Positions 1 to 14,067 of a DNA stretch of 15,456 nucleotides are shown piece after piece (positions within the stretch are counted from its first letter, which is position 1; each line of letters begins with the position of its first letter). This DNA comes from a virus (lineage: Duplodnaviria > Heunggongvirae > Uroviricota > Caudoviricetes), in the IMG/VR virus record IMGVR_UViG_2698536485_000022; one strand, written 5' to 3'. The notes beneath the pieces were generated by a model. The model did no database searches. It had not been told where the DNA came from and saw only the letters and a program-made list of their open reading frames with translations. The position numbers were made by a program, and so were the translations under genes.

Positions 1-420
1 ATGACGGATTATCAGCCATACAGGAAAGGAACTGTGCTTGCCCCAACTGGGCCATGCAATCATCTTCATGTGATTTGTAATGATCCTGTTTATTACCCCG
101 TTAACGATTGTTATTGTGTTTTAGTTGTTAATATTTCTAGTATCAAGGATGGGGTACCCCACGATCCGTCTTGCGTCTTGAATTCCGGTGATCATCGCTT
201 TATCAAGCATCCAAGTTATGTTGTTTACGCTGAAGCTATAATTTGGCGAGTGGATAACATGGTTAGAAAGCAGCGATCGGGTGAGATTTCTGTTCATGAT
301 GATATGCCAGAAGCTACATTCAATAGAATTCTGGACGGTTTTGATATATCTGATGAAGTTACGCCAAAGAACCTTAAATTTAAAAATAAATATTGCGTAT
401 CATCTATTGATGATGAGTAA
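1..420 (+). CDS. hypothetical protein (139 aa); true start may lie upstream of the window
   Basis: ORF from ATG at position 1 to TAA at 418-420 (MTDYQPYRKGTVLAPTGPC...). No family recognised by eye. Same strand as the downstream CoiA-like gene. Confidence 0.4.
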   Translation: MTDYQPYRKGTVLAPTGPCNHLHVICNDPVYYPVNDCYCVLVVNISSIKDGVPHDPSCVLNSGDHRFIKHPSYVVYAEAIIWRVDNMVRKQRSGEISVHDDMPEATFNRILDGFDISDEVTPKNLKFKNKYCVSSIDDE

Positions 421-459: not shown

Positions 460-633
460 ATGGAAGATCAAAAAGCAACCAAGCCACAGCTTAAGTTCGA
501 CACAATGAAAGCATTCGCAGGTATGGGTGCTGCTGTTGAAGTTCTGATGAAGGCTGCTCCTAATGCGTTCACTCACGTTACTGTCTCTGGTAAAGAGCAG
601 CAGGGTAAGCTTCGTCGTCGCAAAGCAGTATGA
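460..633 (+). CDS. small hypothetical protein (57 aa), doubtful
   Basis: ATG 460 is in frame with track ORF 451-633 (GTG 451). Gly/Ala-rich core and basic tail (GKLRRRKAV). No convincing Shine-Dalgarno; may be non-coding. Confidence 0.2.
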   Translation: MEDQKATKPQLKFDTMKAFAGMGAAVEVLMKAAPNAFTHVTVSGKEQQGKLRRRKAV

Positions 634-771
634 TTCATAGGTGGTGATTTTTTAAAAATGTCTTTAGACATAATGTCGTTCACTTAAGTATGGTGGTACT
701 GCGTTTCACCAGATAATGGTTTTTTGATATCTTAATTTCCCTCGCCAGGAGGGTAAATACAGGTAGCATGA

Positions 772-1806
772 ATGCCACTAAAAGCGTCACTTAACGGAAA
801 AGAAATTCATTCTTTTGAATTTAACTCTCAGGAATGGGAATATCTTAAACAGACATATAAAAGCCAGTCTTTGTTTATGTCGTGCTGTGGTCAGCCTGGT
901 ATACCTAAAACAAGCAAACTTAATAACTATTACTTTGCACATAAATCCAAAAGCGATTGCCTGTATGCGAAAGAAAGCGCAGAACATTTATATCTCAAAT
1001 TCTTAATCGCAAAATTAGCCAGTGATGCTGGCTGGTCAGTTACTACCGAAAAACAAGGGGTGACCCCAACAGGAGAACAATGGATTGCCGATGTGTTTTG
1101 TACCAGAAATAACGCGAAACTGGTTTTCGAAGTACAGTTATCACCGCAAAAAGACGATGAATTTAAAGAACGTCAAAAACGATATATCGCATCAGGAGTC
1201 CGTGCACTGTGGTTGCGAAAGTTACGTAAAGGAAGTAAAGAGCATGGTGGGAATATATACCATAGCTACGATTTACCTGTTTTTGGTGTGCGTCAGAATG
1301 AAAATGGGGACTTGTATCTACCACAGTTTGGGATTAGTGTCAGGGAGTTTATCGCGGGTGTTTTTGCCAGAAAGCTATTATGGTTCCCAAAGGTTGGGGA
1401 TGTGCTGACTGCAAAAATAGAATCGCGAGTTACAAAATGCTGGAGATGTAAGAAACGAACTGGAATTATCAGGGGTATTTCTGTTTACAGTAAGTCCGTA
1501 TTCGTCAAGTTTTTATCTTTTCGTGATTCTGATGTCAAAGAACTAATAGCCATTCACGTGGATAACAAAAAACTCTGGGCGGCTGGAATTGGTACTGTTA
1601 AGGACAGAGACAGTGATTGTTATTTATCTAACTGTTGCATACATTGTTATTCGCTTATAGGAGATTTCTTTTTATTAGAGGTTTTCGACTACCCGAATGA
1701 TAAACAAAAGATAATGATAGAATTTACTTTTACTTATGCTAGCAATATGAAAATCTTATCCAGCGAGTGGGTATTTGATGGTAAAAAAGCTGAAATGTTT
1801 TTCTGA
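772..1806 (+). CDS. CoiA-like PD-(D/E)xK nuclease-family protein with Cys-rich C-terminal half
   Basis: 344-aa ORF from ATG 772. Motif series YFAHK ... ESAEHLYLK ... IADVFC ... LVFEVQLS ... RYIASGVRALWL matches what I recall for CoiA-family nucleases (D ... E-x-Q catalytic pattern). C-terminal half has CWRCKK and CCIHC clusters. Visibly AT-rich compared with the phage backbone. Confidence 0.55.
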   Translation: MPLKASLNGKEIHSFEFNSQEWEYLKQTYKSQSLFMSCCGQPGIPKTSKLNNYYFAHKSKSDCLYAKESAEHLYLKFLIAKLASDAGWSVTTEKQGVTPTGEQWIADVFCTRNNAKLVFEVQLSPQKDDEFKERQKRYIASGVRALWLRKLRKGSKEHGGNIYHSYDLPVFGVRQNENGDLYLPQFGISVREFIAGVFARKLLWFPKVGDVLTAKIESRVTKCWRCKKRTGIIRGISVYSKSVFVKFLSFRDSDVKELIAIHVDNKKLWAAGIGTVKDRDSDCYLSNCCIHCYSLIGDFFLLEVFDYPNDKQKIMIEFTFTYASNMKILSSEWVFDGKKAEMFF

Positions 1807-1842
1807 TGCTGTCTTATCCTCGTTGCCATCCCGAAATGACAG

Positions 1843-1875
1843 GAACATCTGGGGGATGTTCTGGGTATTGTGTTC
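1843..1875 (+). terminator. weak candidate terminator hairpin downstream of the CoiA-like gene
   Basis: Inverted repeat GAACATC-tgggg-GATGTTC (1843-1861) followed by a U-rich but interrupted tract. Weak. Confidence 0.25.
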
Positions 1876-1997
1876 ATAACAAAATGCCCCGACTATCAGA
1901 GCCGAGGGAAATTAAGATATCAAAATAACATTATCTGGTGAAATGCAGAGCAGCTCATCTTAAGTGAACGGCATTGGCCTTTATGCGTTTTTTTTCT

Positions 1998-2291
1998 TTA
2001 GTGATGTTCTTTGCTCTTCTGTTTGTCTGTTCTGACCCGTTCCCACTCGATACGTCCTTCTTCTCGTCTTTTATCTATGTATTCCGCAAGATCCTGAATA
2101 TTGATGCAACGTTTTGCTTTTTGTGATGTGCCAATGCGATATGTAGGAACAGGCAACTTACAAGCGTTTGCTTTTGCTTCTGCTGTGGCTGGACTCATAC
2201 CAAAGTACTTTTGGCTAACTGCTGAGAGTTCAATGTTTGAGGTATTGAATTCAGCCATCAGTAAAAACAAGGTGTTCATAAATTTCTCCAT
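1998..2291 (-). CDS. PrtN-family small DNA-binding protein (pyocin-activator / excisionase-like)
   Basis: Track ORF 1998-2354 (TTG start) trimmed to ATG 2291 (MEKFMNTLFLLMAEF...). Pattern MNT-FLLMA ... YF ... LPVPTYRIG-SQKA ... DLAEYIDKRR matches my recollection of the PrtN family. Lies 28 bp downstream of the membrane gene on the same strand. Confidence 0.6.
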   Translation of the reverse strand: MEKFMNTLFLLMAEFNTSNIELSAVSQKYFGMSPATAEAKANACKLPVPTYRIGTSQKAKRCINIQDLAEYIDKRREEGRIEWERVRTDKQKSKEHH

Positions 2292-2319: not shown

Positions 2320-3186
2320 TTAATTAATAGCGTCTTTGCTCTGAAGTACAGCAAATGCCATTAATACCTCTAAAGTATATCGTCTATAAAACTTAACGAA
2401 TCCAACATAAAAAACATAGACGAAGAAAAAGCTAAGTAGCGTCGAAATAGAAATATAAGACACCGCCCCGCCTTCTATAGCACGATAAATTAATGTTAGA
2501 AATGATATCCAAAATGTAATTACAAATACTAAACAAATATTTCTGCAAAAACCATATAATGCAACATAGTTTTGAATTTTTGTTTGATGTTGATTAGAAA
2601 ATTCATAGACGTAATGATAAGCCAATCTGAAAAGATCATCATGAAGACCTGTCCTGATGTTTAATAATTTATCGTCTATTCTGAATTTTTTTTCATAACC
2701 TTCTTTGATCATTAGCCATGTGGTATTAGCTAATTGAAATGGCAATGATTGTGAATAACATAGTTTTTGAGTGGCGTAATCCCATGGTATTATCGGGAAT
2801 AACATCACTTTGATTATGCAGTATTTTATTTTTCTCTTTGTGTCTTCGTTCTGTTTGTCACTTGATGGTGTTAAGACGTTTTTTTTGTCATCTGATAACT
2901 TATTAAATAGATATTCTGACGGATATTGCAATTCTTCGTTCATATATTTTTCAATAAAAAATGCGGATGTGATAGATATAAAGTGTCCAGCTATGTAAGA
3001 TATGATTACTATTGAACCATAGTTCAAAATGCCAAAGATTTGACTTTGACCTCTGAGCAATTCAGTTAAGTCAATAACAATATCTAGATCGAATGTCAAA
3101 CCACAGAAATACATTAACAGGATAAAAAATCCACCTGGTATTAAATATCCAAGAAAGTCATAGAATGAGAATGGATTTTGATTCAT
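2320..3186 (-). CDS. multi-pass inner-membrane protein, AT-rich cargo gene, function unknown
   Basis: Track ORF 2320-3210 (TTG) trimmed to ATG 3186, preceded by GGAGAG. 288 aa with at least four helix-length hydrophobic segments (FLGYLIPGGFFILLMYFCGLTF, IFGILNYGSIVIISYIAGHFISITSAFF, ICLVFVITFWISFLTLIY, ISISTLLSFFFVYVFYVGFV). Strongly AT-rich. Confidence 0.7.
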   Translation of the reverse strand: MNQNPFSFYDFLGYLIPGGFFILLMYFCGLTFDLDIVIDLTELLRGQSQIFGILNYGSIVIISYIAGHFISITSAFFIEKYMNEELQYPSEYLFNKLSDDKKNVLTPSSDKQNEDTKRKIKYCIIKVMLFPIIPWDYATQKLCYSQSLPFQLANTTWLMIKEGYEKKFRIDDKLLNIRTGLHDDLFRLAYHYVYEFSNQHQTKIQNYVALYGFCRNICLVFVITFWISFLTLIYRAIEGGAVSYISISTLLSFFFVYVFYVGFVKFYRRYTLEVLMAFAVLQSKDAIN

Positions 3187-3294: not shown

Positions 3295-3819
3295 TTACGA
3301 CTCAGTTAACTCTTTAAAGCGTTCCATAAACATCCCGTAGGCATGGCCCGGTGCCAGTGGAATCACGTTGAACATCTCTGTTGCCGGGATGCCTTCCAGT
3401 ACAGGCCAGAAAGAGCCATCATCAAGCCCGAGATCGCGGCGTTCGGTTGCCAGCATGATGAGATCGGCATATTTCACGGGCGTACTCATAACCGGGGGTA
3501 ACCCGTATTTCTCACGGATTACGGCGTCTATTTTTTCTTCCATCCGTTTATAGTCAGGAAGAAGGCGTTTCAGTGGTGCGGGAATGTCCTGGCAATACGC
3601 TTCTGTTGCATCATGCATTAACGCTTCAAAAGCAAATTCCTGCGGCACCAGCTGGCTGCAAAGCACCGCATGTTGGGCGACGCTGTAGAAGTGAGAAAGA
3701 TGACCGGCAAAGCGACAGATATTTGAAAGGGAAACCGCGATATCGTTAATAACGATGTCATCTTTATTTATCTTGTCATAATAAAAATGCTTCCCGGAAA
3801 AAGTTTTAATAAATGACAT
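3295..3819 (-). CDS. yfdR: HD-domain phosphohydrolase, YfbR/YfdR-like 5'-deoxynucleotidase family
   Basis: Track ORF 3295-3846 trimmed to ATG 3819 with GGAG 8 nt upstream; 174 aa. HD signature AGHLSHFYSVAQHAV ... ALMHDATEAYCQDIP. Size and position next to a 274-aa gene match my recollection of CPS-53 yfdR. Confidence 0.7.
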   Translation of the reverse strand: MSFIKTFSGKHFYYDKINKDDIVINDIAVSLSNICRFAGHLSHFYSVAQHAVLCSQLVPQEFAFEALMHDATEAYCQDIPAPLKRLLPDYKRMEEKIDAVIREKYGLPPVMSTPVKYADLIMLATERRDLGLDDGSFWPVLEGIPATEMFNVIPLAPGHAYGMFMERFKELTES

Positions 3820-3946
3820 TTTGTTCTCCACGTATATGCGCTGCACCGCGCTGAATTTGGGTAAAAGGAAGCCCTCACCATCCGGTGATTATTGAGTTAA
3901 TTACGTTTCCATAAATGCCCCCGCAGGGGCATTTGCAGTAATGAAA

Positions 3947-4771
3947 TCAGGCGGTGAAAGTACCAATAAAGGTTTCTACTTTGCTGTCTTTGAATTTCTC
4001 AACAAGCAGATCACGAAATTCGTTAGCCATATCTTCCTGCACCGCTTCCAGCTGAATAATGCGCAGAACCAGTACAGGACGATCGCCAGTGATAATGCTG
4101 AGGCGTAATTTAAACGGACGTTCTTTCAGACCTTCAAACGGAACGCATTTAAATTCAAATGCCACTGGCATAATGTCTTTGGTCTTCGCTTCGACAGATT
4201 CCATCAGGGAGCGTTTGCCGCTGAAGTCATTATCTTCAAAATCAGCGGTCTGGTTTGCTTCAATCGTGATTTTACGGATTGCCGCAGCCGCTTTTGTTGC
4301 CTGAATGGCGCCACCATTAGCATCAAAGCCCACAAGGTAGTCGGCCCAGTCTTCAATCCATTCTGCCAGTGATTTCTGGGAGTTACGCTCGCCGTTAACA
4401 GACAACAGGGCAGAGAACGGTGCTGTCTTTTTCAGTTTGAGAGTGGCGGTGTTATCTGCGTGACCTGGTTCATCAATAGTACCCAGGTTAAGCACACTGA
4501 CGGCACGCATATTATCAGCATCGATAAAGCAGCGGGTGCCTTCATCTGCAAGATCTTTAGAATAACGGGTAAAGTCATCGATGCTGGCAGTGGAAAGCGC
4601 ACCACGGAAACGGAAGCGATTTAAATTAAATTTTTCCAGATCATGAATGCGGAAATTCTCAGGCAATGCCACAGCATCGGCACCAATCTTACTGATAATT
4701 TCATTAACACCCTGAGCAGAAATAAGGGCATGGATTTGATTAATTGCGGTTGCGTCTAAGTTCTGAGACAT
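3947..4771 (-). CDS. yfdQ: YfdQ-like prophage protein (DUF2303-type)
   Basis: 274-aa ORF from ATG 4771 with GAGGA Shine-Dalgarno. Length and synteny (120-aa gene upstream, HD-domain gene downstream) match the yfdP-yfdQ-yfdR order of K-12 CPS-53 as I recall it. Not verified by alignment. Confidence 0.55.
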
Positions 4772-4836
4772 AATAAGTCCTCACTATATAAAGATATTCA
4801 GTGATGAGATAAATAATCAGTTAATTAAGAACGATA

Positions 4837-5199
4837 TTAATGACCTGCTGCGCGTAGTTTTCCGTCAGGTTCACCGGCAAGAGTCAGTAATTGTCCCTGG
4901 TCTTCCTGCAGAATAGTCAGGCGACCACCGCGATTGACATACATCGGCGTTTCGGTGGTGTCTTCTTCGGAAATTTTCCCGCGGTTAGTCGGGCGAACAT
5001 ATGAGAGTTTGTGTTTGATTTTCACACGGTTCTCATCAAATGGTTCGATTTCCAGGTTGAGTGAGACCTTACCTTTGGTTTTCGTGTTCATCACACCGGA
5101 AGCGACTTCACTGAGAACTGCGCCGATTTTGGTTTCAAATACGCCGCCGTCCAGCTCCCCGATAAATGCCTGCACATCAGTACTGCGTTCGCTAGCCAT
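4837..5199 (-). CDS. YfdP-like small prophage protein (120 aa)
   Basis: Track ORF 4837-5430 trimmed to ATG 5199, which has AGGAG 7 nt upstream (MASERSTDVQAFIGELDGG...). The 77-codon upstream extension overlaps structured RNA and looks non-coding. Confidence 0.55.
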   Translation of the reverse strand: MASERSTDVQAFIGELDGGVFETKIGAVLSEVASGVMNTKTKGKVSLNLEIEPFDENRVKIKHKLSYVRPTNRGKISEEDTTETPMYVNRGGRLTILQEDQGQLLTLAGEPDGKLRAAGH

Positions 5200-5247
5200 T
5201 TTGCTGCTCCTCATCATATCGACCCTGCAAGGTCGGTTGGTTTCTCC

Positions 5248-5336
5248 ACAAAACAGAGAAGAACACCTGCGGTGGCAGCCGCCCGGATGGATTGGGTTAT
5301 GAGCCCGTCGTCCGGTGATGCTCTTCTCTGTTTTGT
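5248..5336. repeat. perfect 15-bp inverted repeat (ACAAAACAGAGAAGA / TCTTCTCTGTTTTGT) flanking a 59-bp GC-rich spacer with nested hairpins
   Basis: Arms at 5248-5262 and 5322-5336 are exact reverse complements. The spacer contains CCGGA ... TCCGG and GCGG ... CCGC pairings. Lies 50-140 nt upstream of the yfdP-like start. Confidence 0.8.
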
Positions 5337-5400
5337 AAAAAGAGCGGTACCAGCCGGAAGCAAGGGTACAAACTGGTACCGCCAAAGCAGTGGCTGTTGT
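5334..5400 (-). ncRNA. candidate DicF-like sRNA ending in an intrinsic terminator (tL-like)
   Basis: Minus-strand RNA forms GCGGUACCAG-(19 nt loop)-CUGGUACCGC (5344-5353 / 5373-5382) followed by UCUUUUUAC. The 5' part CUUUGGCGGUACCAGUUUGUACCC resembles the DicF core UUUGGCGGUAUCAGUUUUACUCC as I recall it. Sits downstream of the pL-like promoter, as dicF does relative to dicA. Confidence 0.35.
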
Positions 5401-5799
5401 GGTGGGGTTGTCACTCAGGCGTATGGTCAACCTGACAATCCGGTGTCCTCAACGGGGAAAGAGTAACCCCGCCATACTTACCGCCGCGCCATTTCGCGGA
5501 TTACCACAACGCTGAGAGCACTTAGCCAGTTACGGCACCACACTTTGTCGCGGCTCCATAAATGCCCTCATCGTTGCCCCCTGGTCTCTTCCCTGGCGTC
5601 AAACCGGATCGCCGCGCTGGTTAGGCGTCTTATCAGCATCCTCATTGACTTGCACATTCCGGCTACCTGGTTTGTTTGCCCGAGCAAGGAGTGGATTATC
5701 CCCTTTAACGTCACCAGACCGCTAACGACGCATGTGCCATACGCCGTGTTACAACCAAATTTTGTTTAATCTTGCCTGTGTTGTGTTTCTTTTAGATAC

Positions 5800-5827
5800 A
5801 TTATGTATCCCGAGGGTACATTGTCAA
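5800..5827 (-). promoter_or_regulatory. candidate early-left promoter (pL-like) with overlapping palindromic operator
   Basis: On the minus strand: -35 TTGACA (5822-5827), 16-nt spacer, -10 CATAAT (5800-5805). Palindrome GATACA-TTA-TGTATC (5795-5809) overlaps the -10. GGTACA half-site at 5815-5820. Confidence 0.45.
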
Positions 5828-5831
5828 GTAT

Positions 5832-5854
5832 AAAAAAACCTGCCGAAGCAGGTT
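5832..5854 (-). terminator. rho-independent terminator ending the cI transcript
   Basis: Minus strand AACCTGC-TTCG-GCAGGTT followed by seven U, 12 nt after the cI stop codon (5866-5868). Confidence 0.65.
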
Positions 5855-5865
5855 ATAAATATTGA

Positions 5866-6540
5866 TTAGGCCTTTATTATGTATCTTCTTGGTTTTCCTG
5901 AGAAAATCACTGTACCAATTATAGAGCAATTACCGTTGATCTTAATGTAAGGTTCAGGCCAGTTTGGGTTTAATGCTTTGAGGTAACGCTGTGTTCCATC
6001 TTCTATCAACCGCTTGAAGGTGGTTTCGCCTGTATCGTGCATCAATGCAATAACGTCGTCACCGTGGCAGGCAGGGACTTCAGGATCAACAAAAATCATG
6101 TCTCCCGGGCGGTACTCATCAATCATTGAATCACCAATCACCCGCAAGATATAAGTCATTTCGCCACAGGGTACAGGGCAGGGGTAAGTTTCTGCTGTGC
6201 TCAAATCAACCTCAGAATAGCCAACTTCTTTCCATGCTCCGGCCTGTACCCATGATATGACAGGGACTAACGTTATTTGTTTGTTAGTGATTGAAACATC
6301 AGGTTTTTTTGTGATGTTCGTGGTCTGGTGTTCTTGATCAAGCCATCCGACAGGCAGGTCGAAACATTTTTCGATGTGCCGCGCCATGCTGTCACCGATA
6401 TTTTTAGTAGCACCATCTCCCATAAACCTGCTGGTCTGGGTTGGCTCGCGATCAATCATGGTGGCAAAGGAAGAATTCCCGCCAACACCATCTCTCAGTT
6501 TTCTGGCGTTAGACCGCCGGATGTCATGGACTGTTTTCAT
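5866..6540 (-). CDS. cI: CI-type prophage repressor (N-terminal HTH, C-terminal S24 LexA-like autopeptidase)
   Basis: 224 aa from ATG 6540. C-terminal domain has the Ala-Gly cleavage site (VQAGAW), catalytic Ser in VIGDSM and Lys in TFKRL. Divergent from the cro-like gene. Confidence 0.85.
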   Translation of the reverse strand: MKTVHDIRRSNARKLRDGVGGNSSFATMIDREPTQTSRFMGDGATKNIGDSMARHIEKCFDLPVGWLDQEHQTTNITKKPDVSITNKQITLVPVISWVQAGAWKEVGYSEVDLSTAETYPCPVPCGEMTYILRVIGDSMIDEYRPGDMIFVDPEVPACHGDDVIALMHDTGETTFKRLIEDGTQRYLKALNPNWPEPYIKINGNCSIIGTVIFSGKPRRYIIKA

Positions 6541-6630
6541 AAAGAAATTAAAACCTTTGTACCGATAAGGTACAAGTATCTTGAAGGTTCATCTCAATCA
6601 TGTAATATGTATACCGGAAGTACATATTGT
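6541..6630. promoter_or_regulatory. divergent immunity-region promoter/operator segment (pRM / pR equivalents)
   Basis: Perfect palindrome TTGTACC-GATAA-GGTACAA at 6557-6575 and related TACA-TAT-TGTA at 6621-6631. Candidate pR hexamers TTGAAG (6581-6586) and TAATAT (6603-6608). Confidence 0.55.
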
Positions 6631-6831
6631 ATGAAAGCGTATTGGGACTCTTTAACCAAAGAACAGCAGGGCGAGTTGGCCGGAAAAGTTGGCTCAACAC
6701 CTGGCTACTTACGGCTGGTTTTCAATGGCTATAAAAAAGCCAGTTTTGTGCTGGCTAAAAAACTTGAGCAATGCACGTCAGGTGCAATTACGAAATCTGA
6801 CTTAAGACCGGATATCTATCCGAAAGATTAA
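6631..6831 (+). CDS. cro: Cro-like small HTH regulator (YdaS-type)
   Basis: 66 aa from ATG 6631, in frame with track ORF 6328-6831 (MKAYWDSLTKEQQGELAGKVGSTPGYLRLVFNGYKKASF ... DLRPD). Divergent from cI. The N-terminal part of the track ORF overlaps cI antisense and is rejected. Confidence 0.65.
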   Translation: MKAYWDSLTKEQQGELAGKVGSTPGYLRLVFNGYKKASFVLAKKLEQCTSGAITKSDLRPDIYPKD

Positions 6832-6862
6832 CAGAACACCTTCAATTTTTAACCACAGAACG

Positions 6863-7426
6863 ATGAGGCTAACCGTGGGTAAGCATCACTGGAAAGTAGA
6901 AAAACAGCCTGAGTGGTACGTGAAAGCTGTCAGAAAAACTATCGCGGCGTTGCCGGGGGGTTACGCTGAAGCTGCTGAGTGGCTGGATGTAACAGAGAAC
7001 GCTTTATTCAACCGCCTTCGTGCAGATGGCGATCAGATTTTCCCGCTGGGATGGGCAATGGTTTTACAGCGCGCGGCTGGCACTCACTACATTGCGGATG
7101 CTGTCGCACAGTCTGCTGGTGGGGTGTTTGTATCGCTTCCTGAAATTGAGGAAGTAGAGAACGCCGATATAAACCAGCGCCTGCTGGAAGTCATCGAACA
7201 GATCGGGAATTACTCAAAGCAGATTCGTTCGGCAATCGAAGATGGGGTCGTGGAGCCACACGAGCAGACAGCAATTAATGATGAGTTGTATCTGTCAATT
7301 TCGAAGCTCCAGGAGCATGCAGCACTGGTCTACAAAATCTTCTGCGCTCCAGAAAAGAGTGACGCCCGCGAGTGTGCAGCTCCGGGCGTCGTGGCGTTTT
7401 GTGTCTGTGGAGAAACTAACGCATGA
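6863..7426 (+). CDS. early regulatory protein, CII-like / YdaT-like family
   Basis: 187-aa ORF immediately after cro. Stop overlaps the next start (ATGA). Family call is by position and general resemblance only. Confidence 0.45.
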
Positions 7427-7814
7427 ACAGTTTAACAACACACTACCGTCGCTCGCAACTGATTGCGCTTCCTGTACCGGGTGGAAAAGCGAAGGTGGAG
7501 TATTGCTATGCAGTGAATGTACCAGGTGACAGGGAAATTGTAACCCACAGCTTTGCAGAGTGGGCTGTGGGTGATTTCAACCGGCAGAAGGAGACAGTCC
7601 TTTGCGACAAGTTAACCGCTGGTTCAAAGATCACTACGGAGTGCCCGTCAGAGTCATTCGTTGGGAGCCGGAAACACAACGGGTTATCTACCTCCGTGAA
7701 GGCTATGAACATGAATGCTTCAGTCCGCTCGAACAGTTTCGTCGTAAATTCAGGGAAATAGAGGTCGGTCATGAGCCTGTTAATGACATCCCAGCCCATT
7801 GTGATAAATCGTGA
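7423..7814 (+). CDS. uncharacterised early gene with a frame switch (frame 1 open 7423-7761; frame 0 open 7575-7814)
   Basis: ATG 7423 has GGAGAAA upstream and overlaps the previous stop. Frame 0 has AAGGAGA followed by TTG at 7602 and encodes [54 protein letters not shown]. The frame-1 tail after about 7600 is low-complexity (Ser/Asn-rich). Confidence 0.35.
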
Positions 7815-8763
7815 TCTTGCATGCCGTATTGGTCTGAATGAGGCAATTGTGTTGCAGCAGCTTCATTACTGGCTGAATGAAACGAATTCAGGCACTGAGC
7901 ATGGCGGAATTCGCTGGGTTTATAACACGACAGAACAGTGGCTGGAGCAGTTTCCGTTCTGGTCAGAGTCCACTCTGAAACGCACATTTGCAAGCCTGAA
8001 ATCACTTGGGGTTTTGCGTCGCGAGCAACTCAATAAATCGAAGCGTGACATGACCAACTTCTACACGATCAACTATGAAAGTGAGCTTTTAGAAGAGGTC
8101 AAAGTGAACGAATCCATCAGGTCAAAATGCACTTCTCCATCGGGTCAAAGTGACCTGATGGATGGGCGCAAAATGACACGATCCATTGGTTCAAAACGAC
8201 ACGCTGTCATCGGGTCAAAATGGCCCAATGATCTTACAGAGAATACAACAGAGATTACTACAGAGAATAAAACCTCTTCTCGTCCGGACGCTTCGCAACC
8301 GGACACGCAAACGGCTGAACAGGAGTTTTTAACTCGCCATCCTGATGCGGTTGTATTCAGCCCTAAAAAGCGCCAGTGGGGAACGCAGGATGATTTGACC
8401 TGCGCACAGTGGCTCTGGAAAAAAATCATCGCCCTGTACGAGCAGGCCGCCGAATGTGACGGCGAGGTGGTTCGTCCCAAAGAACCGAACTGGACAGCAT
8501 GGGCAAACGAAATTCGCCTGATGTGTGTGCAGGATGGTCGTACTCACAAACAAATCTGCGAGATGTACAGCCGCGTCAGCCGCGATCCGTTCTGGTGCCG
8601 TAACGTGCTCAGCCCGTCGAAGTTGCGGGAAAAATGGGATGAGCTTTCCCTGCGCTTATCGCCGTCCGTCAGCACGCACACAGAAAAACGTGAAGACCCG
8701 TACTTCAAAGCCAGTTACGACAACGTGGACTACAGCCAGATCCCGGCAGGATTCAGGGGGTGA
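7771..8763 (+). CDS. replication initiation protein, O-like (replisome-organizer / DnaD-like N-terminal domain)
   Basis: 330 aa from ATG 7771 with GAGG Shine-Dalgarno. N-terminus [36 protein letters not shown] ... TLKRTFASLKSLGVLRRE is typical of phage replisome organizers. Position after cro/cII. Confidence 0.75.
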   Translation: MSLLMTSQPIVINRDLACRIGLNEAIVLQQLHYWLNETNSGTEHGGIRWVYNTTEQWLEQFPFWSESTLKRTFASLKSLGVLRREQLNKSKRDMTNFYTINYESELLEEVKVNESIRSKCTSPSGQSDLMDGRKMTRSIGSKRHAVIGSKWPNDLTENTTEITTENKTSSRPDASQPDTQTAEQEFLTRHPDAVVFSPKKRQWGTQDDLTCAQWLWKKIIALYEQAAECDGEVVRPKEPNWTAWANEIRLMCVQDGRTHKQICEMYSRVSRDPFWCRNVLSPSKLREKWDELSLRLSPSVSTHTEKREDPYFKASYDNVDYSQIPAGFRG

Positions 8764-8765
8764 TC

Positions 8766-8858
8766 ATGAGTCTGTTAAATGACGTTCAGAAATTCATTGA
8801 AGCCCATCCGGGCTGTACTTCCGGAGACATTGCGGATGCTTTTTACGTGGGGGCTTAA
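8766..8858 (+). CDS. 30-aa ORF between O-like and dam, possible remnant
   Basis: ATG 8766 to TAA 8856-8858 (MSLLNDVQKFIEAHPGCTSGDIADAFYVGA). Stop overlaps the dam start (TAATG). Occupies the position where a helicase-loader gene would be expected. Confidence 0.2.
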   Translation: MSLLNDVQKFIEAHPGCTSGDIADAFYVGA

Positions 8859-9511
8859 TGAGTAATAAATATTGCCAGGCGCTGGTGGAACTGCGGAATA
8901 AACCAGCCCATGAACTGAAGGAAGTGGGAGATCAGTGGCGCACGCCGGATAACATTTTCTGGGGAATTAACACCCTGTTTGGTCCGTTTGTTCTGGATCT
9001 GTTCACTGACGGTGATAACGCCAAATGTGCCGCGTATTACACGGCGGAAGACAACGCGCTGGCGCATGACTGGTCAGAACGCCTTGCGGAGCTTAAAGGT
9101 GCTGCCTTTGGTAATCCTCCATACAGCCGCGCCAGTCAGCATGAGGGGCAATACATCACCGGCATGCGTTACATCATGAAACATGCCAGTGCCATGCGTG
9201 ATAAGGGCGGGCGCTATGTTTTCCTGATCAAAGCTGCCACCAGCGAAGTGTGGTGGCCGGAAGATGCAGATCATATTGCTTTTATTCGCGGGCGTATTGG
9301 TTTTGAACTGCCTGTCTGGTTTATCCCGAAAGACGAGAAGCAGGTACCGACAGGAGCTTTTTTCGCTGGTGCTATTGCTGTTTTTGACAAGACCTGGAAG
9401 GGACCGGCAATCAGCTACATTGGGCGCGATGAACTTGAGGCATGTGGTGAGGCGTTTCTGGCGCAGGTTCGCCAGCAGGCGGAAAAACTGGTCAGGGAGA
9501 TGGCGGCATGA
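8858..9511 (+). CDS. phage Dam-family DNA N6-adenine methyltransferase
   Basis: 217 aa with the catalytic NPPY motif (AAFGNPPYSRA). Translationally coupled on both sides. Confidence 0.8.
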   Translation: MSNKYCQALVELRNKPAHELKEVGDQWRTPDNIFWGINTLFGPFVLDLFTDGDNAKCAAYYTAEDNALAHDWSERLAELKGAAFGNPPYSRASQHEGQYITGMRYIMKHASAMRDKGGRYVFLIKAATSEVWWPEDADHIAFIRGRIGFELPVWFIPKDEKQVPTGAFFAGAIAVFDKTWKGPAISYIGRDELEACGEAFLAQVRQQAEKLVREMAA

Positions 9512-9834
9512 CGACATTAACTCAATGCCAGCAGCAGGTGCTGGATATGCTGATTTCTTATCAGAAAGAGCGTGGCTTTCCGCCAACCAATCAGGAGGTG
9601 GCAACCATGCTGGGATACCGTTCAGTGAATGCAGCGGTAGAGCATCTTCGCGCACTGGAGAAAAAAGGCGTCATCACGATAAAGCGTGGCGTGGCCCGGG
9701 GGATAACGCTTCATACCGCGGTGAAGGACGACGACAGCGAGGCGGTCGGGATTATCCACTCACTGCTTGCCGGTGAGGAAAACGCAAGGCTGCGTGCAAC
9801 CCACTGGTTACATGAGAGGGACCTGAAAGTATGA
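9508..9834 (+). CDS. LexA N-terminal DNA-binding-domain paralog lacking the S24 peptidase domain
   Basis: 108 aa. MTTLTQCQQQVLDMLISYQKERGFPPTNQEVATMLGYRSVNAAVEHLRALEKKGVITIKRGVARGITL aligns by eye with the E. coli LexA N-terminus (..LT.RQQEV.D.I.......G.PPT..E.A..LG.RS.NAA.EHL.AL..KGVI.I..G..RGI.L). No cleavage site or Ser/Lys dyad follows. Confidence 0.75.
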   Translation: MTTLTQCQQQVLDMLISYQKERGFPPTNQEVATMLGYRSVNAAVEHLRALEKKGVITIKRGVARGITLHTAVKDDDSEAVGIIHSLLAGEENARLRATHWLHERDLKV

Positions 9835-10226
9835 AGCTGATCCTGCCTTTTCCGCCCAGCGTGAACACGTACTGGCGACACCCCAACAAAGGGGCGTTTG
9901 CTGGTAAGAGCCTGATAAGCGCGGCGGGGCGCAAATTCCAGAGCGCGGCGTGTGCAGCAATAGTTGAGCAGTTACGTCGTCTGCCAAAACCAACGTCGGC
10001 ACCTGCATCAGTGGAGATCGTGTTGTTTCCTCCGGATAACCGGATCCGCGATCTGGACAACTATAACAAGGCGCTGTTTGACGCCCTGACCCACGCGGGT
10101 GTGTGGGAAGACGACAGTCAGGTGAAAAGAATGCTGGTGGAGTGGGGACCGGTTATCCCGGAAGGGAAGGTCGAGATCACTATCAGTAAGTACGAAAAAG
10201 CGAGTTGCAAATTAGCAACTCGGTAA
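9831..10226 (+). CDS. rusA: RusA Holliday-junction resolvase
   Basis: 131 aa. Motifs LPFPPSVNTYWR and DLDNYNKALFDALTHAGVWEDDSQV match RusA. Confidence 0.85.
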   Translation: MKLILPFPPSVNTYWRHPNKGAFAGKSLISAAGRKFQSAACAAIVEQLRRLPKPTSAPASVEIVLFPPDNRIRDLDNYNKALFDALTHAGVWEDDSQVKRMLVEWGPVIPEGKVEITISKYEKASCKLATR

Positions 10227-10271
10227 CGGAATTGAGCAACACCCTAAATTTGGGTATTACCTCGTTAAAGA

Positions 10272-10291
10272 TACTGTATTTATGAACAGTG
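10272..10291. promoter_or_regulatory. SOS (LexA) box TACTGTATTTATGAACAGTG
   Basis: CTGT-N8-ACAG core at 10274-10289 with matching flanks (consensus TACTGTATATATATACAGTA). About 90 bp upstream of the KilA-N gene start, adjacent to a TTGATA hexamer at 10297-10302. Confidence 0.65.
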
Positions 10292-10377
10292 TATCCTTGA
10301 TAACTATTAAAAATCGCAGTAAGTTCATCTTGCATCAACGAAAAGGGAGTGCAGTCCCGAAATTTGTGGAGAAACCA

Positions 10378-11193
10378 ATGAATCAGTTGCTTGTAATTGA
10401 TGGCGTTTCTGTGCGCCAGTACTTTGAATCTAACTACTGTCTTAACGACCTTCAGAAAGCTGCTCTTCTTGCCGCTGGTGAGAATCGCTCCTCCCGTTCG
10501 CTGGAAGTTCACGAGTTTATGCGTCGTCCTGAAACGAAGGCTCTTGTGGAATTACTGGAAGAAGAAACTACGGGAGATTCCCGTAGTATTCCTGTCATCA
10601 CCATTCAGGGGCGCAATGGTGGGACGTATGTCTGTAAAGAGCTGGTCTATGCATATGCAATGTGGATCAGCCCGGCATTCAGCTTAAAAGTGATACGTAC
10701 TTTTGATGCGCTTCATAATTCATCACCAGAAGAAACCATATCCGACAAAATTAAATCCGGGGTCATTCTGCTTGAATCAGCAGCAAAGACTCTAAATCTG
10801 TCAAACTCCTCGAAACTTGGTGCATACCAGAAATTATCAAAGGTAGCAGGTCTTCCTGAACTTATGCCGATCTATGCCATTGATGCACCTGCTGATGCGC
10901 CAGATGGTTCAAGCCGCCCGACACTGTCACTGAGTGCACTGCTGAAACAGTATGGTATACGCCTGACGGCTAATCAGGCATATCACCAGATGGTGAAACT
11001 GGGGATCGTCGAGCAGCGCGAACGATACAGCCGTACCGCGATTAACAACATCAAAAAATTCTGGTCGCTGACAGCGAAAGGTTGCATGTTCGGCAAGAAC
11101 ATCACCAGTCCTGCAAATCCGCGCGAGACGCAGCCGCATTTCTTCGAATCCCGATTCCCTGAGCTGTTAAAGCTGCTCGATACCGTTCACTGA
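10378..11193 (+). CDS. KilA-N domain protein, antirepressor-like
   Basis: Track ORF 10282-11193 trimmed to ATG 10378 (GGAG 8 nt upstream); 271 aa. N-terminal KilA-N pattern: LLVIDGVSVRQYFESNYCLNDLQKAAL ... GTYVCKELVYAYAMWISPAF. Confidence 0.7.
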   Translation: MNQLLVIDGVSVRQYFESNYCLNDLQKAALLAAGENRSSRSLEVHEFMRRPETKALVELLEEETTGDSRSIPVITIQGRNGGTYVCKELVYAYAMWISPAFSLKVIRTFDALHNSSPEETISDKIKSGVILLESAAKTLNLSNSSKLGAYQKLSKVAGLPELMPIYAIDAPADAPDGSSRPTLSLSALLKQYGIRLTANQAYHQMVKLGIVEQRERYSRTAINNIKKFWSLTAKGCMFGKNITSPANPRETQPHFFESRFPELLKLLDTVH

Positions 11194-11208
11194 TGGGAGG
11201 CGTGGAGC

Positions 11209-11724
11209 ATGAGAATTACACCACCCCATCTGCAGCCAGTTTTATCCAGGGTTAAACGTTTTGTTGAACGAATGCCGGAAGGCGCAACACTGACCCAGAT
11301 ATCACAGAAAGTGCAGGCGTACAGTCTACTGAATAAAAGGGATAAGGAGATACTCATTGGCATTATCCGCGACAGTGGACTTCTGGTCGTTGCGAATGAT
11401 GGAAGAACTACAACGTTACATCATCCTAAATTTGGACATCAGGCAGTAAATAGTGAAATACCAGTAAAAACAGAGGAACCCGTTGTGATTAAAAAGACCG
11501 TTACTCCGGATGAATTACGCAGGCATGCTGAGGAGCTGATCAGGGCTGCGGAAGAAGCAGAGAAGAAATTTAATGATCGTGCGGAAATTAAAAAGCAACT
11601 GGATCCTCTGAAACTGGAAATCCTCCAGGCGTATGGAATGGCAAGTCGTAAATTTGATGAGTTTGTTGATGCTATGGCGGATATGGGGAAAGCGGTACAG
11701 AAACTGAAACAGATTGTGCTGTGA
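11209..11724 (+). CDS. hypothetical phage protein (171 aa)
   Basis: ATG 11209 with GGGAGG Shine-Dalgarno. Charged coiled-coil-like C-terminus. No family recognised. Confidence 0.55.
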   Translation: MRITPPHLQPVLSRVKRFVERMPEGATLTQISQKVQAYSLLNKRDKEILIGIIRDSGLLVVANDGRTTTLHHPKFGHQAVNSEIPVKTEEPVVIKKTVTPDELRRHAEELIRAAEEAEKKFNDRAEIKKQLDPLKLEILQAYGMASRKFDEFVDAMADMGKAVQKLKQIVL

Positions 11725-11733
11725 GGTTCTACG

Positions 11734-12723
11734 TTGAGAGCACTGCTGACCCCTGAAATTGCCCCGCGTATGGGGATCGTCTTGTTCAGACCAGGTTCAG
11801 AGCTGATGCCCCTGTTTATGCAGGGGCGTGTCCTGCTGGAGCCTGAGCCGGAACGTTATTCATCTTTTGCCAGTGGTGCCGTTCCGGCAGCATCACAACC
11901 GCTGGCGGATGATCCTGCCGTTCGGGCCGTGTTCCGCCATGAGGCGGTGATCCGTCGTGCTGGTGGCGTGGAATGTCTTGAAAGCTGGTTACTTCGTGAA
12001 AAAGGCTGCCAGTGGCCTCATTCCGACTGGCACAGCGAGAACATGACCACAATGCGACACGCTCCGGGCGCAATCCGTCTGTGCTGGCACTGCGATAACC
12101 AGCTGCGCGATCAGTTCACGGAACGGCTGGAAGCAATGGCAACGGATAACTGTGCCCGCTGGGTGTTGTCTGTTGTGCGTCGGGATCTCGGTTTTGATGA
12201 TAGTCACGTTGTGACAATGCCGGAACTGTGCTGGTGGCTGATTCGTAATGACCTGGCGTATGCCTTACCGGAAAGTGCAGCCCGTAAGGCACTGAGATTA
12301 CCGAAGCCTGTTGTGCCGTCTGTCACCCGGGAAAGTGACCTTGTGCCTTCGGTTACTGCCACCAGCATCATCCAGGATAAGGCGAAAAAGGTGCTGGCGC
12401 TGAAAGTGGATCCGGAGTCGCCGGAGTCTTTTATGTTACGCCCCAAACGTCGTCGCTGGGTTAATGAAAAGTACACGCGCTGGGTTAAGACACAGCCTTG
12501 CGCGTGTTGTGGTAAGCCAGCCGACGATCCACATCACCTGATTGGCCATGGTCAGGGTGGAATGGGTACAAAAGCGCATGACCTTTTTGTGTTGCCTTTG
12601 TGCAGAAAACACCATGACGAACTGCATGCGGATACCGTGGCATTTGAAGAGAAGTATGGTTCCCAACTGGAGCTGATATTTCGTTTTATCGATCGCGCGC
12701 TGGCGATTGGTGTGCTGTCCTGA
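11734..12723 (+). CDS. DUF968 (YdfU-like) protein with C-terminal HNH-like Cys/His motif
   Basis: TTG 11734 preceded by GTGAGG; 329 aa. C-terminus CACCGKPADDPHHLIGHGQGGMGTKAHDLFVLPLCRKHHDELH. Lies directly upstream of Q, as ydfU does relative to quuQ in my recollection. Confidence 0.65.
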   Translation: MRALLTPEIAPRMGIVLFRPGSELMPLFMQGRVLLEPEPERYSSFASGAVPAASQPLADDPAVRAVFRHEAVIRRAGGVECLESWLLREKGCQWPHSDWHSENMTTMRHAPGAIRLCWHCDNQLRDQFTERLEAMATDNCARWVLSVVRRDLGFDDSHVVTMPELCWWLIRNDLAYALPESAARKALRLPKPVVPSVTRESDLVPSVTATSIIQDKAKKVLALKVDPESPESFMLRPKRRRWVNEKYTRWVKTQPCACCGKPADDPHHLIGHGQGGMGTKAHDLFVLPLCRKHHDELHADTVAFEEKYGSQLELIFRFIDRALAIGVLS

Positions 12724-12740
12724 TTTTGTGGAGAAAGTTG

Positions 12741-13121
12741 ATGCGTGATATTCAGATGGTTCTTGAACGCTGGGGGGCATGGGCGGCAAGTGGTAACACC
12801 GGGGTGGACTATTCTCCGATCGCTGCCGGATTCAAAGGACTTTTACCATCTGCCACTAAACCACGTCCGGCCTGCTGCGATGATGACGGACTTATCATTG
12901 AAAACTGTCTTGCTCGTCTGAAGCAGAAAAAACCTGAGGAGTATTCGCTTCTCATTGCTCATTATTTGTTGCGAATATCAAAAAGACAGATAGCCAGGAC
13001 GAGAAAGAAAAGCGAAAAAGCAATACGAATTGAGATGCAGATAGCCGAAGGGTTTATTGACGGATGTTTGTCTGTGCTGGGGGTAAGACTGGAGATGGAC
13101 GACTGGCTGCTAAAAAAGTAA
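12741..13121 (+). CDS. late-gene antiterminator Q (QuuD/QuuQ type)
   Basis: 126 aa from ATG 12741 with GGAG Shine-Dalgarno (MRDIQMVLERWGAWAA ... AAGFKGLLP ... CCDDDGLIIENCLARLKQ). Followed by a terminator. Confidence 0.75.
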   Translation: MRDIQMVLERWGAWAASGNTGVDYSPIAAGFKGLLPSATKPRPACCDDDGLIIENCLARLKQKKPEEYSLLIAHYLLRISKRQIARTRKKSEKAIRIEMQIAEGFIDGCLSVLGVRLEMDDWLLKK

Positions 13122-13190
13122 AAAATGATTAGTGCGGTCCGCAAAAAGTATGTCAGTATGTTAAGAGTGGTTACTTCGCCACACAGCTTA

Positions 13191-13214
13191 AACCCGCCGC
13201 GAGCGGGTTTTTTT
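13191..13214 (+). terminator. tR'-like intrinsic terminator downstream of Q
   Basis: AACCCGC-cgcga-GCGGGTT followed by seven T. Confidence 0.7.
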
Positions 13215-13871: not shown

Positions 13872-13911
13872 GATTGCGGAGTTAATCATGCGTCGTTATT
13901 ATTCAGCAATC

Positions 13912-13987: not shown

Positions 13988-13988
13988 A

Positions 13989-14054: not shown

Positions 14055-14067
14055 TTATCGGTATTCT

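What the first reader, a model, noticed from the sequence alone, without database searches (positions are those of the whole stretch)
772..1806. AT-rich, counter-oriented cargo gene encoding a CoiA-like PD-(D/E)xK nuclease-family protein
The gene is on the plus strand, opposite to the surrounding early-left prophage genes, and is visibly AT-rich, which suggests a laterally acquired moron. The product combines a D ... E-x-Q nuclease core with a Cys-rich C-terminal half. Nuclease morons at this prophage position are plausible anti-phage or exclusion factors, and I cannot place this one in a named defence system.
Basis: partly seen in the sequence, partly recalled or inferred. Interest (0 to 1): 0.6.

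Follow-up and report, generated by a model that had tools for sequence, protein, structure and literature searches.

The report
CoiA-like nuclease on IS4-derived cassette
The gene is real and encodes a rare CoiA-family nuclease with two zinc-binding modules, and it reached this E. coli prophage inside a 1.3-kb transposase-less cassette built from insertion-sequence ends; a role in defence against foreign DNA is plausible but untested.

Summary
Window 772-1806 (+) is a 344-aa ORF at 38% GC. It matches Pfam CoiA_nuc above the curated cutoff. D107, E120-x-Q122 and R134 are conserved, as are an N-terminal CCHC zinc finger and a C-terminal Cys4 module. dN/dS of 0.2-0.3 indicates a protein under selection.

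It is the only cargo of a 1306-bp cassette (671-1976) bounded by 73-nt inverted arms. Both arms derive from the right end of a 1431-bp IS4-subgroup insertion sequence. The cassette has no transposase, only decayed remnants of the transposase 3' end. It sits in the top of a bidirectional terminator hairpin that is intact in sibling prophages. The same cassette, flanked by a perfect 10-bp duplication, lies in an unrelated E. coli island. Only 12 of 5426 complete E. coli genomes carry it.

The protein is not a competence CoiA orthologue. Its C-terminal domain is family-specific and has no solved structural relative. It matches no PADLOC model. Homologues are single genes in variable regions of mobile elements, with Septu, Gabija, Hachiman, RosmerTA or a Type IIG restriction enzyme nearby in five contexts.

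My best reading is a stand-alone conflict nuclease mobilised as an insertion cassette. The anatomy is firm; the function is inferred.

The parts
671..1976 (.). IS4-subgroup-derived cassette without a transposase (like a mobile insertion cassette), 1306 bp, with the CoiA-like gene as its only cargo
   Evidence: Homology to sibling prophages stops at about 657-668 and resumes at about 1977. The same unit (window 673-1981, 89% nt identity) lies in an unrelated locus, L011-L014. Its ends match IS4-like termini.
671..744 (-). Left arm: an inverted copy of the right end (IRR and last codons of the transposase gene) of an IS4-like insertion sequence
   Evidence: The two arms form a 73-nt inverted repeat, 84% complementary. 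The left arm is 83.6% identical to L024 positions 2029-1957. The terminal sequence TAATGTCGTTCACTTAAG compares with IRR CAATGCCGTTCACTTAAG. Decayed transposase C-terminal codons lie at 742-683.
772..1806 (+). CDS for a 344-aa CoiA-family PD-ExQ nuclease (RefSeq WP_001128527.1, named 'competence protein CoiA')
   Evidence: dN/dS against close homologues is 0.22-0.31.
838..966 (+). N-terminal zinc-finger module (aa 23-65; C38, C39, H57 and C63 invariant)
   Evidence: CoiA_N PF25164 is below threshold at 18.6 bits against 26.3. The ligand residues are invariant in 44 homologues.
973..1353 (+). PD-(D/E)xK nuclease core (aa 68-194) with D107, E120-x-Q122 and R134
1363..1803 (+). Family-specific C-terminal domain with an invariant Cys4 site (C223, C226, C289, C292)
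1828..1890 (+). Decayed remnant of the IS4-family transposase 3' coding region, with an in-frame stop
   Evidence: tblastn aligns transposase aa 400-420 here at 62% identity with a stop codon. At the DNA level, window 1826-1979 matches L024 1879-2033 at 82%.
1903..1976 (+). Right arm: IS4-like right end (IRR) in its native orientation
   Evidence: Seventeen of its terminal 18 nt match the IRR of the intact IS.
660..670 (.). Left copy of the imperfect target-site duplication (GTCTTTAGACA), which corresponds to the loop and upper stem of the terminator
   Evidence: Alignment with empty sites L030, L031 and L010. Seven of 10 positions match the right copy.
1977..1986 (.). Right copy of the imperfect target-site duplication (GCCTTTATGC), followed by the terminator T-run
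460..633 (+). Upstream flanking 57-aa ORF, conserved in sibling prophages. It defines the left side of the insertion site.
1998..2279 (-). Downstream flanking gene of the PrtN (pyocin activator) family, the first minus-strand early-left gene. It defines the right side of the insertion site.
   Evidence: Pfam PF11112 E=8.2e-23.

Best explanation
The feature is a single-gene cargo cassette. A rare CoiA-family Mg-dependent PD-ExQ endonuclease has zinc-binding modules on both sides of its nuclease core. It lies between two inverted copies of the right end of an IS4-subgroup insertion sequence, and the cassette has no transposase of its own. An IS4-type transposase supplied in trans most likely pasted the cassette into the top of the bidirectional terminator hairpin between the prophage's plus-strand cargo genes and its early-left operon. 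That is how the prophage acquired this extra gene. The protein itself most likely acts alone as a conflict nuclease, for defence or exclusion. In that reading the zinc modules and the fast-evolving C-terminal domain pick out foreign DNA, perhaps single-stranded or branched replication and recombination intermediates as for CoiA, and the PD-ExQ site cuts it. Shown here: the gene, its domains and conserved residues, purifying selection, the cassette anatomy, the IS4 origin of the arms, the empty and filled sites, the second insertion site with a target duplication, and the neighbourhoods next to defence systems. Inferred: mobilisation in trans, nuclease activity, the substrate, and the defence role.
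For: Protein evidence:
- CoiA_nuc scores above the Pfam cutoff.
- D107, Q122, R134 and the eight zinc-ligand residues are invariant across 44 homologues.
- dN/dS is 0.22-0.31.
- CoiA proper is a structure-specific ssDNA endonuclease and D-loop resolvase with catalytic D and E residues. The PD-ExQ site with a conserved Arg is the CoiA-family signature.

Cassette evidence:
- The arms form a 73-nt inverted repeat. Its longest exact inverted match is 23 nt, against a maximum of 18 in 200 shuffles.
- The arms are 81-85% identical to the right end of an IS4-like IS.
- The terminal signature fits the IS4 subgroup (-AATR...WTW, direct repeats of 10-13 bp).
- Transposase remnants are present.
- Sibling prophages and phage mEp460 have the empty site with an intact terminator.
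- The same cassette lies in a thiM-adjacent island with a perfect 10-bp duplication, CCTTCAAAGG.
- Intact and remnant IS copies also sit in hairpin tops with 10-11-bp duplications.
- Only 12 of 5426 genomes carry the cassette.

Role evidence:
- Close homologues (76-89% aa identity) lie in a lambdoid prophage, a satellite-like island, a P4-like satellite and a conjugative plasmid.
- Among distant homologues and plasmid copies, five contexts have Septu, Gabija, Hachiman, RmrA of RosmerTA, or a Type IIG restriction enzyme within 3 genes.
- In the window, the gene follows a Panacea-domain antitoxin-like gene and its partner.
Against: - There are no experimental data for this subfamily, and no PADLOC, PHROGs or NCBIfam model matches it.
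- Adjacency to defence genes is only a correlation, and I ran no background control.
- Several contexts show no known defence neighbour (L004, L028, L029).
- A lone nuclease with no partner gives no obvious way to tell self from non-self DNA.
- The window's target duplication is imperfect, 7 of 10. The cassette may have reached this prophage by recombination rather than direct transposition.
- Both ends are of the IRR type, and nobody has tested whether the transposase accepts such a pair.
- The window allele lacks 4 residues of the RYSKT motif that is conserved in one subclade of the C-terminal domain.
- Distant homologues have no IS arms, so the cassette is a recent E. coli-lineage packaging and not a property of the family.
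Confidence: 0.55

Rival explanations
1. The nuclease serves the mobile element's own DNA metabolism. It would be a structure-specific resolvase or flap endonuclease, CoiA-like or RusA-like, that processes recombination or replication intermediates of the prophage, satellite or plasmid carrying it, and would not attack foreign DNA.
For: CoiA is a D-loop resolvase. The Shewanella plasmid homologue lies near two RecT genes. The family is common on large plasmids, 114 PLSDB records.
Against: This prophage already encodes RusA. The gene is absent from about 500 sibling prophages that otherwise share the junction, so it is dispensable cargo. It has no conserved recombinase or helicase partner.
Confidence: 0.15
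2. The nuclease is part of the cassette's own mobility. It would act as a homing-type endonuclease, or as a TnsA-like second-strand nuclease working with an IS4-type transposase, and would cut hairpin or terminator targets.
Against: The intact IS shows the same hairpin targeting and 10-11-bp duplications without any CoiA-like gene. Most homologues, including those at 76-80% identity, lack one or both arms. The IS4 family is described as moved by a single-ORF DDE transposase through cut-and-paste.
Confidence: 0.07
3. The gene is a neutral or decaying passenger with no current function in this host, or a toxic nuclease kept silent. It would have been fixed only because the cassette hitch-hiked.
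For: The window allele has a 4-aa deletion and substitutions in the most conserved C-terminal motif. The gene is AT-rich, and the only consensus promoter-like site spans the junction. It is rare, 12 of 5426 genomes.
Against: The ORF is intact in all 12 genomes at 97-100% identity. dN/dS is 0.2-0.3 with all catalytic and zinc ligands retained. The family is maintained across Gamma- and Betaproteobacteria and on many plasmids.
Confidence: 0.13
4. It is a true competence protein CoiA orthologue that acts in natural transformation, as the RefSeq name implies.
For: The Pfam CoiA_nuc match and the RefSeq product name.
Against: CoiA is reported as restricted to Bacillota, with YraN/ComM filling the role in other bacteria. 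No Pfam family matches the C-terminal half even at E<=1, and that half is specific to this family. The gene is mobile-element cargo, absent from 99.8% of E. coli genomes.
Confidence: 0.03

Closest known systems
Competence protein CoiA of Bacillota (S. pneumoniae CoiA, B. subtilis YjbF; Pfam PF06054)
   Same: The nuclease domain is homologous and scores above the Pfam gathering cutoff. It has the PD-ExQ active-site variant with a conserved downstream Arg, and a small N-terminal zinc finger.
   Different: The C-terminal half is an unrelated, family-specific Cys4 domain. The host is a proteobacterium, and the gene is sporadic mobile-element cargo and not a competence-regulon gene. No link to RadA or to transformation is seen.
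MIC231, the mobile insertion cassettes derived from IS231 (IS4 family) in the Bacillus cereus group
   Same: IS-family terminal repeats flank a passenger gene with no transposase, and the cassette is presumably moved in trans. The family is the same (IS4) and the target duplications are about 10 bp.
   Different: The cassette derives from the IS4 subgroup in E. coli, not the IS231 subgroup. The 2008 survey of the IS4 family had seen passenger DNA only in the IS231 subgroup. Here both arms are of the IRR type, and the cargo is a nuclease.
IS4 and IS4-like insertion sequences of E. coli (1431-bp element on IncF plasmids; the K-12 insZ remnant between tdk and adhE)
   Same: The terminal 18 nt are nearly identical, and the subterminal 70-150 nt are 81-85% identical. 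All insert into the loop and upper stem of GC-rich hairpins with 10-11-bp duplications.
   Different: The 445-aa DDE transposase ORF is replaced by the CoiA-like gene. Only decayed remnants of the transposase 3' end remain.
PD-lambda-4 (Vassallo et al. 2022), the only published defence system described as having a 'CoiA domain'
   Same: PD-lambda-4B shares the CoiA N-terminal zinc-finger region (HHpred match to CoiA positions 1-63).
   Different: PD-lambda-4B has no CoiA nuclease domain and works with an AAA ATPase partner. The PADLOC models, which include the PD-lambda systems, do not hit the window protein.
DUF820/Uma2 (COG4636) PD-(D/E)xK nucleases
   Different: They have no zinc modules, and the catalytic Lys or Arg sits in a different position. 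Sequence identity is only 7-16%.

Membership tests
CoiA family (Pfam PF06054 CoiA_nuc) | The nuclease domain matches the family HMM above the curated gathering score | tested here: met
   40.3 bits against a cutoff of 20.3, E=4.6e-10, aa 68-194, HMM positions 1-123 of 158.
CoiA family (Pfam PF06054 CoiA_nuc) | PD-ExQ active-site variant plus a conserved Arg (Feder & Bujnicki 2005); catalytic D and E essential (Hardy et al.) | tested here: met
   D107, Q122 and R134 are invariant and E120 is at least 90% conserved in 44 homologues. Catalysis itself was not tested.
CoiA family (Pfam PF06054 CoiA_nuc) | N-terminal zinc finger (CoiA_N) | tested here: inconclusive
   PF25164 scores 18.6 bits, below its cutoff of 26.3, but C38, C39, H57 and C63 are invariant.
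Competence protein CoiA (functional orthologue) | CoiA-type C-terminal extension | tested here: not met
   No Pfam family matches aa 198-344 at E<=1. The domain is confined to about 50 clusters with this architecture and has no solved fold relative. I did not compare it directly with a Bacillota CoiA sequence.
Competence protein CoiA (functional orthologue) | Chromosomal competence gene of Bacillota that acts with RadA in transformation | tested here: not met
   The gene is E. coli prophage cargo in 12 of 5426 genomes. The published distribution restricts CoiA to Bacillota. A role in transformation cannot be tested here.
PD-(D/E)xK nuclease superfamily | Restriction-endonuclease-like alpha/beta core fold | tested here: met
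Mobile insertion cassette (non-autonomous element derived from an IS) | Terminal inverted repeats homologous to the ends of a known IS | tested here: met
   The arms are 81-85% identical to the right end of the IS4-like element. The terminal 18 nt match at 16-17 positions, and the IS4-subgroup end signature is present.
Mobile insertion cassette (non-autonomous element derived from an IS) | Passenger gene or genes present and no transposase gene between the ends | tested here: met
   The only long ORF in 671-1976 is the CoiA-like gene. Transposase similarity is limited to two decayed 20-21-aa remnants.
Mobile insertion cassette (non-autonomous element derived from an IS) | Target-site duplication of the length made by the family (10-13 bp for the IS4 subgroup) | tested here: met
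   The L012 copy has a perfect 10-bp duplication, CCTTCAAAGG. In the window the duplication is imperfect, 7 of 10, and corresponds to the terminator loop and upper stem.
Mobile insertion cassette (non-autonomous element derived from an IS) | Found at independent sites with identical boundaries, with empty sites in relatives | tested here: met
   There are two unrelated loci (dusA prophage and thiM-adjacent island) with boundaries at 673 and 1981. Empty sites are seen in L010, L030 and L031.
Mobile insertion cassette (non-autonomous element derived from an IS) | Mobilised in trans by the cognate transposase | not testable with these tools
   Intact 445-aa transposase copies exist on many E. coli plasmids. 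Whether they act on a pair of IRR-type ends needs an experiment.
Known anti-phage defence systems (PADLOC-DB v2.0.0, including PD-lambda-4) | Match to a model of a described defence protein | tested here: not met
   The protein gets 0 PADLOC hits at E<=1. PD-lambda-4B resembles only CoiA positions 1-63.
Candidate defence gene (by association with defence islands) | Repeatedly found next to known defence systems in variable regions of mobile elements | tested here: inconclusive
   Septu, Gabija, Hachiman, RmrA or a Type IIG restriction enzyme lies within 3 genes in five contexts. Other contexts have none. I did not compute a background rate.

The most novel reading that the evidence does not exclude
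An IS4-type transposase moves single-gene 'moron cassettes' into the loops of intergenic terminator hairpins of prophages, satellites and plasmids. The cargo of this one would be the founding member of an undescribed single-protein defence family: a CoiA-type structure-specific nuclease with a new zinc-ribbon recognition domain that attacks foreign single-stranded or branched DNA. If so, this would be a concrete transposition route for the acquisition of phage 'morons', which has mostly been put down to illegitimate recombination (from my own knowledge), and it would link the D-loop nuclease of transformation to immunity.
Probability: 0.3. Interest if true: 0.7.

Novelty: new variant of a known kind. 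Interest (0 to 1): 0.5.

Why it matters
Three points make this worth following up.

1. It gives base-pair-resolved before and after views of how a prophage gained an extra gene. A cassette made of IS ends landed in a terminator hairpin, which leaves the neighbouring coding sequences intact. Passenger-carrying derivatives had been reported in the IS4 family only for the IS231 subgroup of Bacillus.
2. It marks the RefSeq name 'competence protein CoiA' as misleading for this proteobacterial, mobile-element-borne subfamily.
3. It nominates a rare, partner-less nuclease with a structurally new C-terminal domain as a candidate defence or exclusion factor. The candidate can be tested cheaply, because the native E. 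coli strains (for example ETEC H10407) and standard phage panels exist.

If the function is confirmed, it would extend CoiA-type recognition of single-stranded and D-loop DNA from transformation to immunity.

Tried and rejected
- PADLOC, PHROGs and NCBIfam scans of the protein gave nothing significant.
- PDB sequence searches with the protein and with a 44-sequence profile gave no hits.
- The afdb50 fold library was unavailable. I therefore could not make a direct structural comparison with AlphaFold models of Bacillota CoiA. BFVD gave only low-TM matches to phage 'competence protein' entries.
With the single protein it returned only 2 loci, so the genome-contig scan added little.
- I searched for flanking inverted repeats around six distant homologues and found none. 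The Salmonella P4-like copy has no arms, and the plasmid copy has only a left arm. I therefore rejected the idea that the repeats are a property of the nuclease family or that the nuclease is the cassette's transposase.
- I rejected an invertible-segment reading of the inverted repeat. No invertase is nearby, and the arms are clearly IS ends.
- I rejected identity with PD-lambda-4B, which shares only the zinc finger.
- Rfam found no RNA family inside the cassette.
- The promoter scan gave one weak junction-spanning site, fewer than in shuffled sequence, so I make no claim about a promoter.
- I could not reconstruct a perfect target duplication for the window copy.

Full report
**1. The observation**

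Window 772-1806 is an ATG-started + strand ORF of 344 codons. Its GC content is 38.0% and GC3 is 34%. The whole window is 47.0% GC and positions 3301-15456 are 49.8%. The gene is therefore AT-rich, but so is the entire left 3.3 kb (36.6%), including the neighbouring 288-aa ORF (30%).

The gene is convergent with the minus-strand genes to its right, which are PrtN-family, an AT-rich hypothetical, yfdR, yfdQ, yfdP and a cI-like repressor. It shares its strand with the two ORFs to its left.

Pfam places aa 68-194 in CoiA_nuc (PF06054) at 40.3 bits against a curated cutoff of 20.3. CoiA_N and DUF6035 fall just below their thresholds.

**2. The protein**

A search of 5.8 billion proteins returned only 71 clusters. 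Nearly all are 340-380 aa long and align over their full length. In an alignment of 44 of them:
- C38, C39, H57 and C63 are invariant. These form the N-terminal zinc finger.
- K76, D107, Q122 and R134 are invariant, and E120 is at least 90% conserved.
- C223, C226, C289 and C292 are invariant.
- W333 is invariant.

D107, E120-x-Q122 and R134 together are the 'PD-ExQ plus conserved Arg' signature described for the CoiA family. The corresponding D and E residues are essential in pneumococcal CoiA.

Against close homologues dN/dS is 0.22-0.31. The zinc-finger and nuclease half is tighter (0.10-0.20) and the C-terminal half is looser (0.31-0.48). The gene is therefore under purifying selection, and the C-terminal domain is the faster-evolving part.

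**3. The surroundings and how the gene got there**

The window is the left part of a lambdoid prophage next to a dusA fragment in E. coli. Only 12 of 5426 complete E. coli genomes contain the gene. More than 500 others match the query only up to window positions 657-668, and many match again only from about 1977.

A 73-nt inverted repeat, 84% complementary, brackets the gene at 672-744 and 1903-1975. Its longest exact inverted match is 23 nt, against a maximum of 18 in 200 shuffles.

Both arms are 81-85% identical to the right end of an IS4-like insertion sequence. That end carries the 3' end of the transposase gene. The IS4-like element occurs in two forms:
- An intact 1431-bp element encoding a 445-aa IS4-family transposase, found on many IncF plasmids.
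- The insZ remnant between tdk and adhE in K-12.

The right side of the cassette (1826-1979) is collinear with the last about 150 bp of the IS. The left arm is the same end, inverted. Decayed codons of the transposase C-terminus can be seen in both.

The terminal sequences are TAATGTCGTTCACTTAAG and CAATGCCGTTCACTTAAG. They fit the IS4-subgroup end signature, -AATR...WTW.

Sibling prophages carry the identical upstream gene and have an empty site. So does phage mEp460. There, the 57-aa gene and the PrtN-like gene are separated by 46-47 bp containing the bidirectional terminator AAAACCCGCCTTTAGGCGGGTTTTTT. In the window, the cassette (671-1976, 1306 bp) sits in the top of that hairpin. An imperfect direct repeat of the loop and upper stem flanks it: GTCTTTAGAC and GCCTTTATGC, matching at 7 of 10 positions.

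The same cassette, 89% identical over window 673-1981 and nowhere outside it, lies in an unrelated E. coli island next to thiM. There it is flanked by a perfect 10-bp duplication, CCTTCAAAGG. The intact IS and insZ also sit in hairpin tops with duplications of 11 and 10 bp. This agrees with the 10-13-bp direct repeats and the marked target specificity reported for the IS4 subgroup.

I conclude that the gene is the passenger of an IS4-derived cassette without a transposase. That is the kind of element described as a mobile insertion cassette for IS231.

The arms are not a property of the nuclease family. Six distant homologue loci have none. A Salmonella copy at 80% identity has none. A plasmid copy at 76% identity has only the left arm.

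**4. What it probably does**

The closest characterised relative is CoiA of Bacillota. It is a structure-specific ssDNA endonuclease that resolves the transformation D-loop together with RadA, and it is reported as restricted to that phylum.

The window protein shares the nuclease domain and apparently the small N-terminal zinc finger. It does not share the C-terminal region, the taxon or the genomic setting, so the RefSeq name 'competence protein CoiA' should not be read as a statement of function.

Its relatives are single genes in the variable regions of mobile elements:
- a satellite-like island, a P4-like satellite and a conjugative plasmid, at 76-89% identity;
- large plasmids of Aeromonas, Shewanella, Pseudomonas and others, 114 PLSDB records in all;
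- chromosomal islands.

No partner gene is conserved across these contexts. In five contexts a canonical defence system lies within three genes: Septu in Psychromonas, Gabija on Aeromonas pAsa4, Hachiman in Vibrio, RmrA of RosmerTA in Morganellaceae satellites, and a Type IIG/ISP restriction enzyme in Caballeronia. In the window itself the gene follows a Panacea-domain antitoxin-like gene and its 128-aa partner.

The most likely role is therefore a stand-alone conflict nuclease. The zinc modules and the fast-evolving C-terminal domain would select the substrate, plausibly foreign single-stranded or branched DNA by analogy with CoiA. This is inference. The protein matches no PADLOC model. The only published 'CoiA domain' defence protein, PD-lambda-4B, shares only CoiA positions 1-63. 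I ran no background control for the neighbourhood signal.

**5. Rivals**

I considered four other readings.
- A role in the element's own recombination. This prophage has RusA, and about 500 sibling prophages lack the gene.
- A role in cassette mobility. The intact IS shows the same targeting without the gene, and most homologues lack the arms.
- A silent or decaying passenger. The ORF is intact, selection is purifying and all ligands are retained. Against that, the window allele has a 4-aa deletion in the RYSKT motif.
- True competence CoiA. Distribution and architecture contradict this.

**6. Novelty and verdict**

The sequence is already in RefSeq under a family name, and the nuclease family and the cassette type are both known kinds. 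Three things are new relative to what I could find:
- a proteobacterial, mobile-element-borne CoiA subfamily with an unrecognised C-terminal zinc domain;
- its packaging in an IS4-subgroup passenger cassette, where the 2008 survey had seen passenger DNA only in the IS231 subgroup;
- a clean example of a prophage gaining an extra gene by insertion into a terminator hairpin.

My confidence in the anatomy is about 0.9. My confidence in the defence or exclusion function is about 0.4. I set interest at 0.5.

Noticed in passing
window 1-420 (ORF 34-420, +) and L001 14833-15405: Just upstream of the window's first ORF lies a Panacea-domain protein (RefSeq WP_000458583.1), followed by this 128-aa ORF, which has no Pfam or PADLOC match. 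The pair looks like a PanA-type antitoxin with an unknown toxin, sitting right after the dusA fragment at the prophage end.
   Followed up: partly
window 2320-3186 (-): This 288-aa ORF is very AT-rich (30.4% GC). It has only sub-threshold similarity to SieB superinfection-exclusion protein (18.8 bits against a cutoff of 26) and a weak PADLOC Csx27 hit (E=1.8e-5). It may be a second cargo or exclusion gene. An 85%-identical copy is present in the CFT073-type genomes listed.
   Followed up: partly
window 13912-14523: Rfam finds two tRNA genes (13912-13984 and 14068-14141), the sRNA STnc100 (14254-14462, +; 175 bits) and the anti-GcvB sRNA AgvB (14464-14523, -; 56.6 bits, just above its cutoff of 56). 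They lie downstream of the antiterminator Q gene.
   Followed up: no
L023 2999-3988 (K-12 insZ), L024 601-2031, L012 5891-7219: All IS4-like copies I examined, and the cassette, sit in the loop and upper stem of GC-rich hairpins between convergent genes. Their duplications are 10-11 bp: CCCAGAAGGG, CCCGCTTCGCG and CCTTCAAAGG. This suggests that this IS lineage targets terminator hairpins.
   Followed up: partly
window 665-694 (+): The only sigma-70-like site near the gene is TAGACA-18 nt-TATGGT. It spans the junction, with the -35 hexamer in the duplicated target and the -10 hexamer in the left arm, so it could be a hybrid promoter created by the insertion. It matches only 9 of 12 positions, and the region has fewer such sites than shuffled sequence.
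   Followed up: no
window 1600-1650 (aa 277-293 of the protein): The window allele reads KDRDSD----CYLSNCCIHCY where most close relatives read K-RYSKTVG--Y-SNGCIHCD. That is a 4-aa deletion plus substitutions in the most conserved motif of the C-terminal domain. The other cassette-borne allele (P0002) has also diverged here.
   Followed up: partly
P0102 and P0076: The otherwise family-restricted C-terminal domain also appears after a DUF5710 domain in P0102 (aa 77-161), and at the N-terminus of P0076, a 340-aa protein with no Pfam match. The domain may therefore be an independent module.
   Followed up: no
L022 3001-3708 (E. coli O157 Xuzhou21): Another decayed IS4-like end, 81% identical to the cassette arm, lies next to two large helicase genes near nanC in O157 genomes. 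I did not check whether it bounds another passenger cassette.
   Followed up: no
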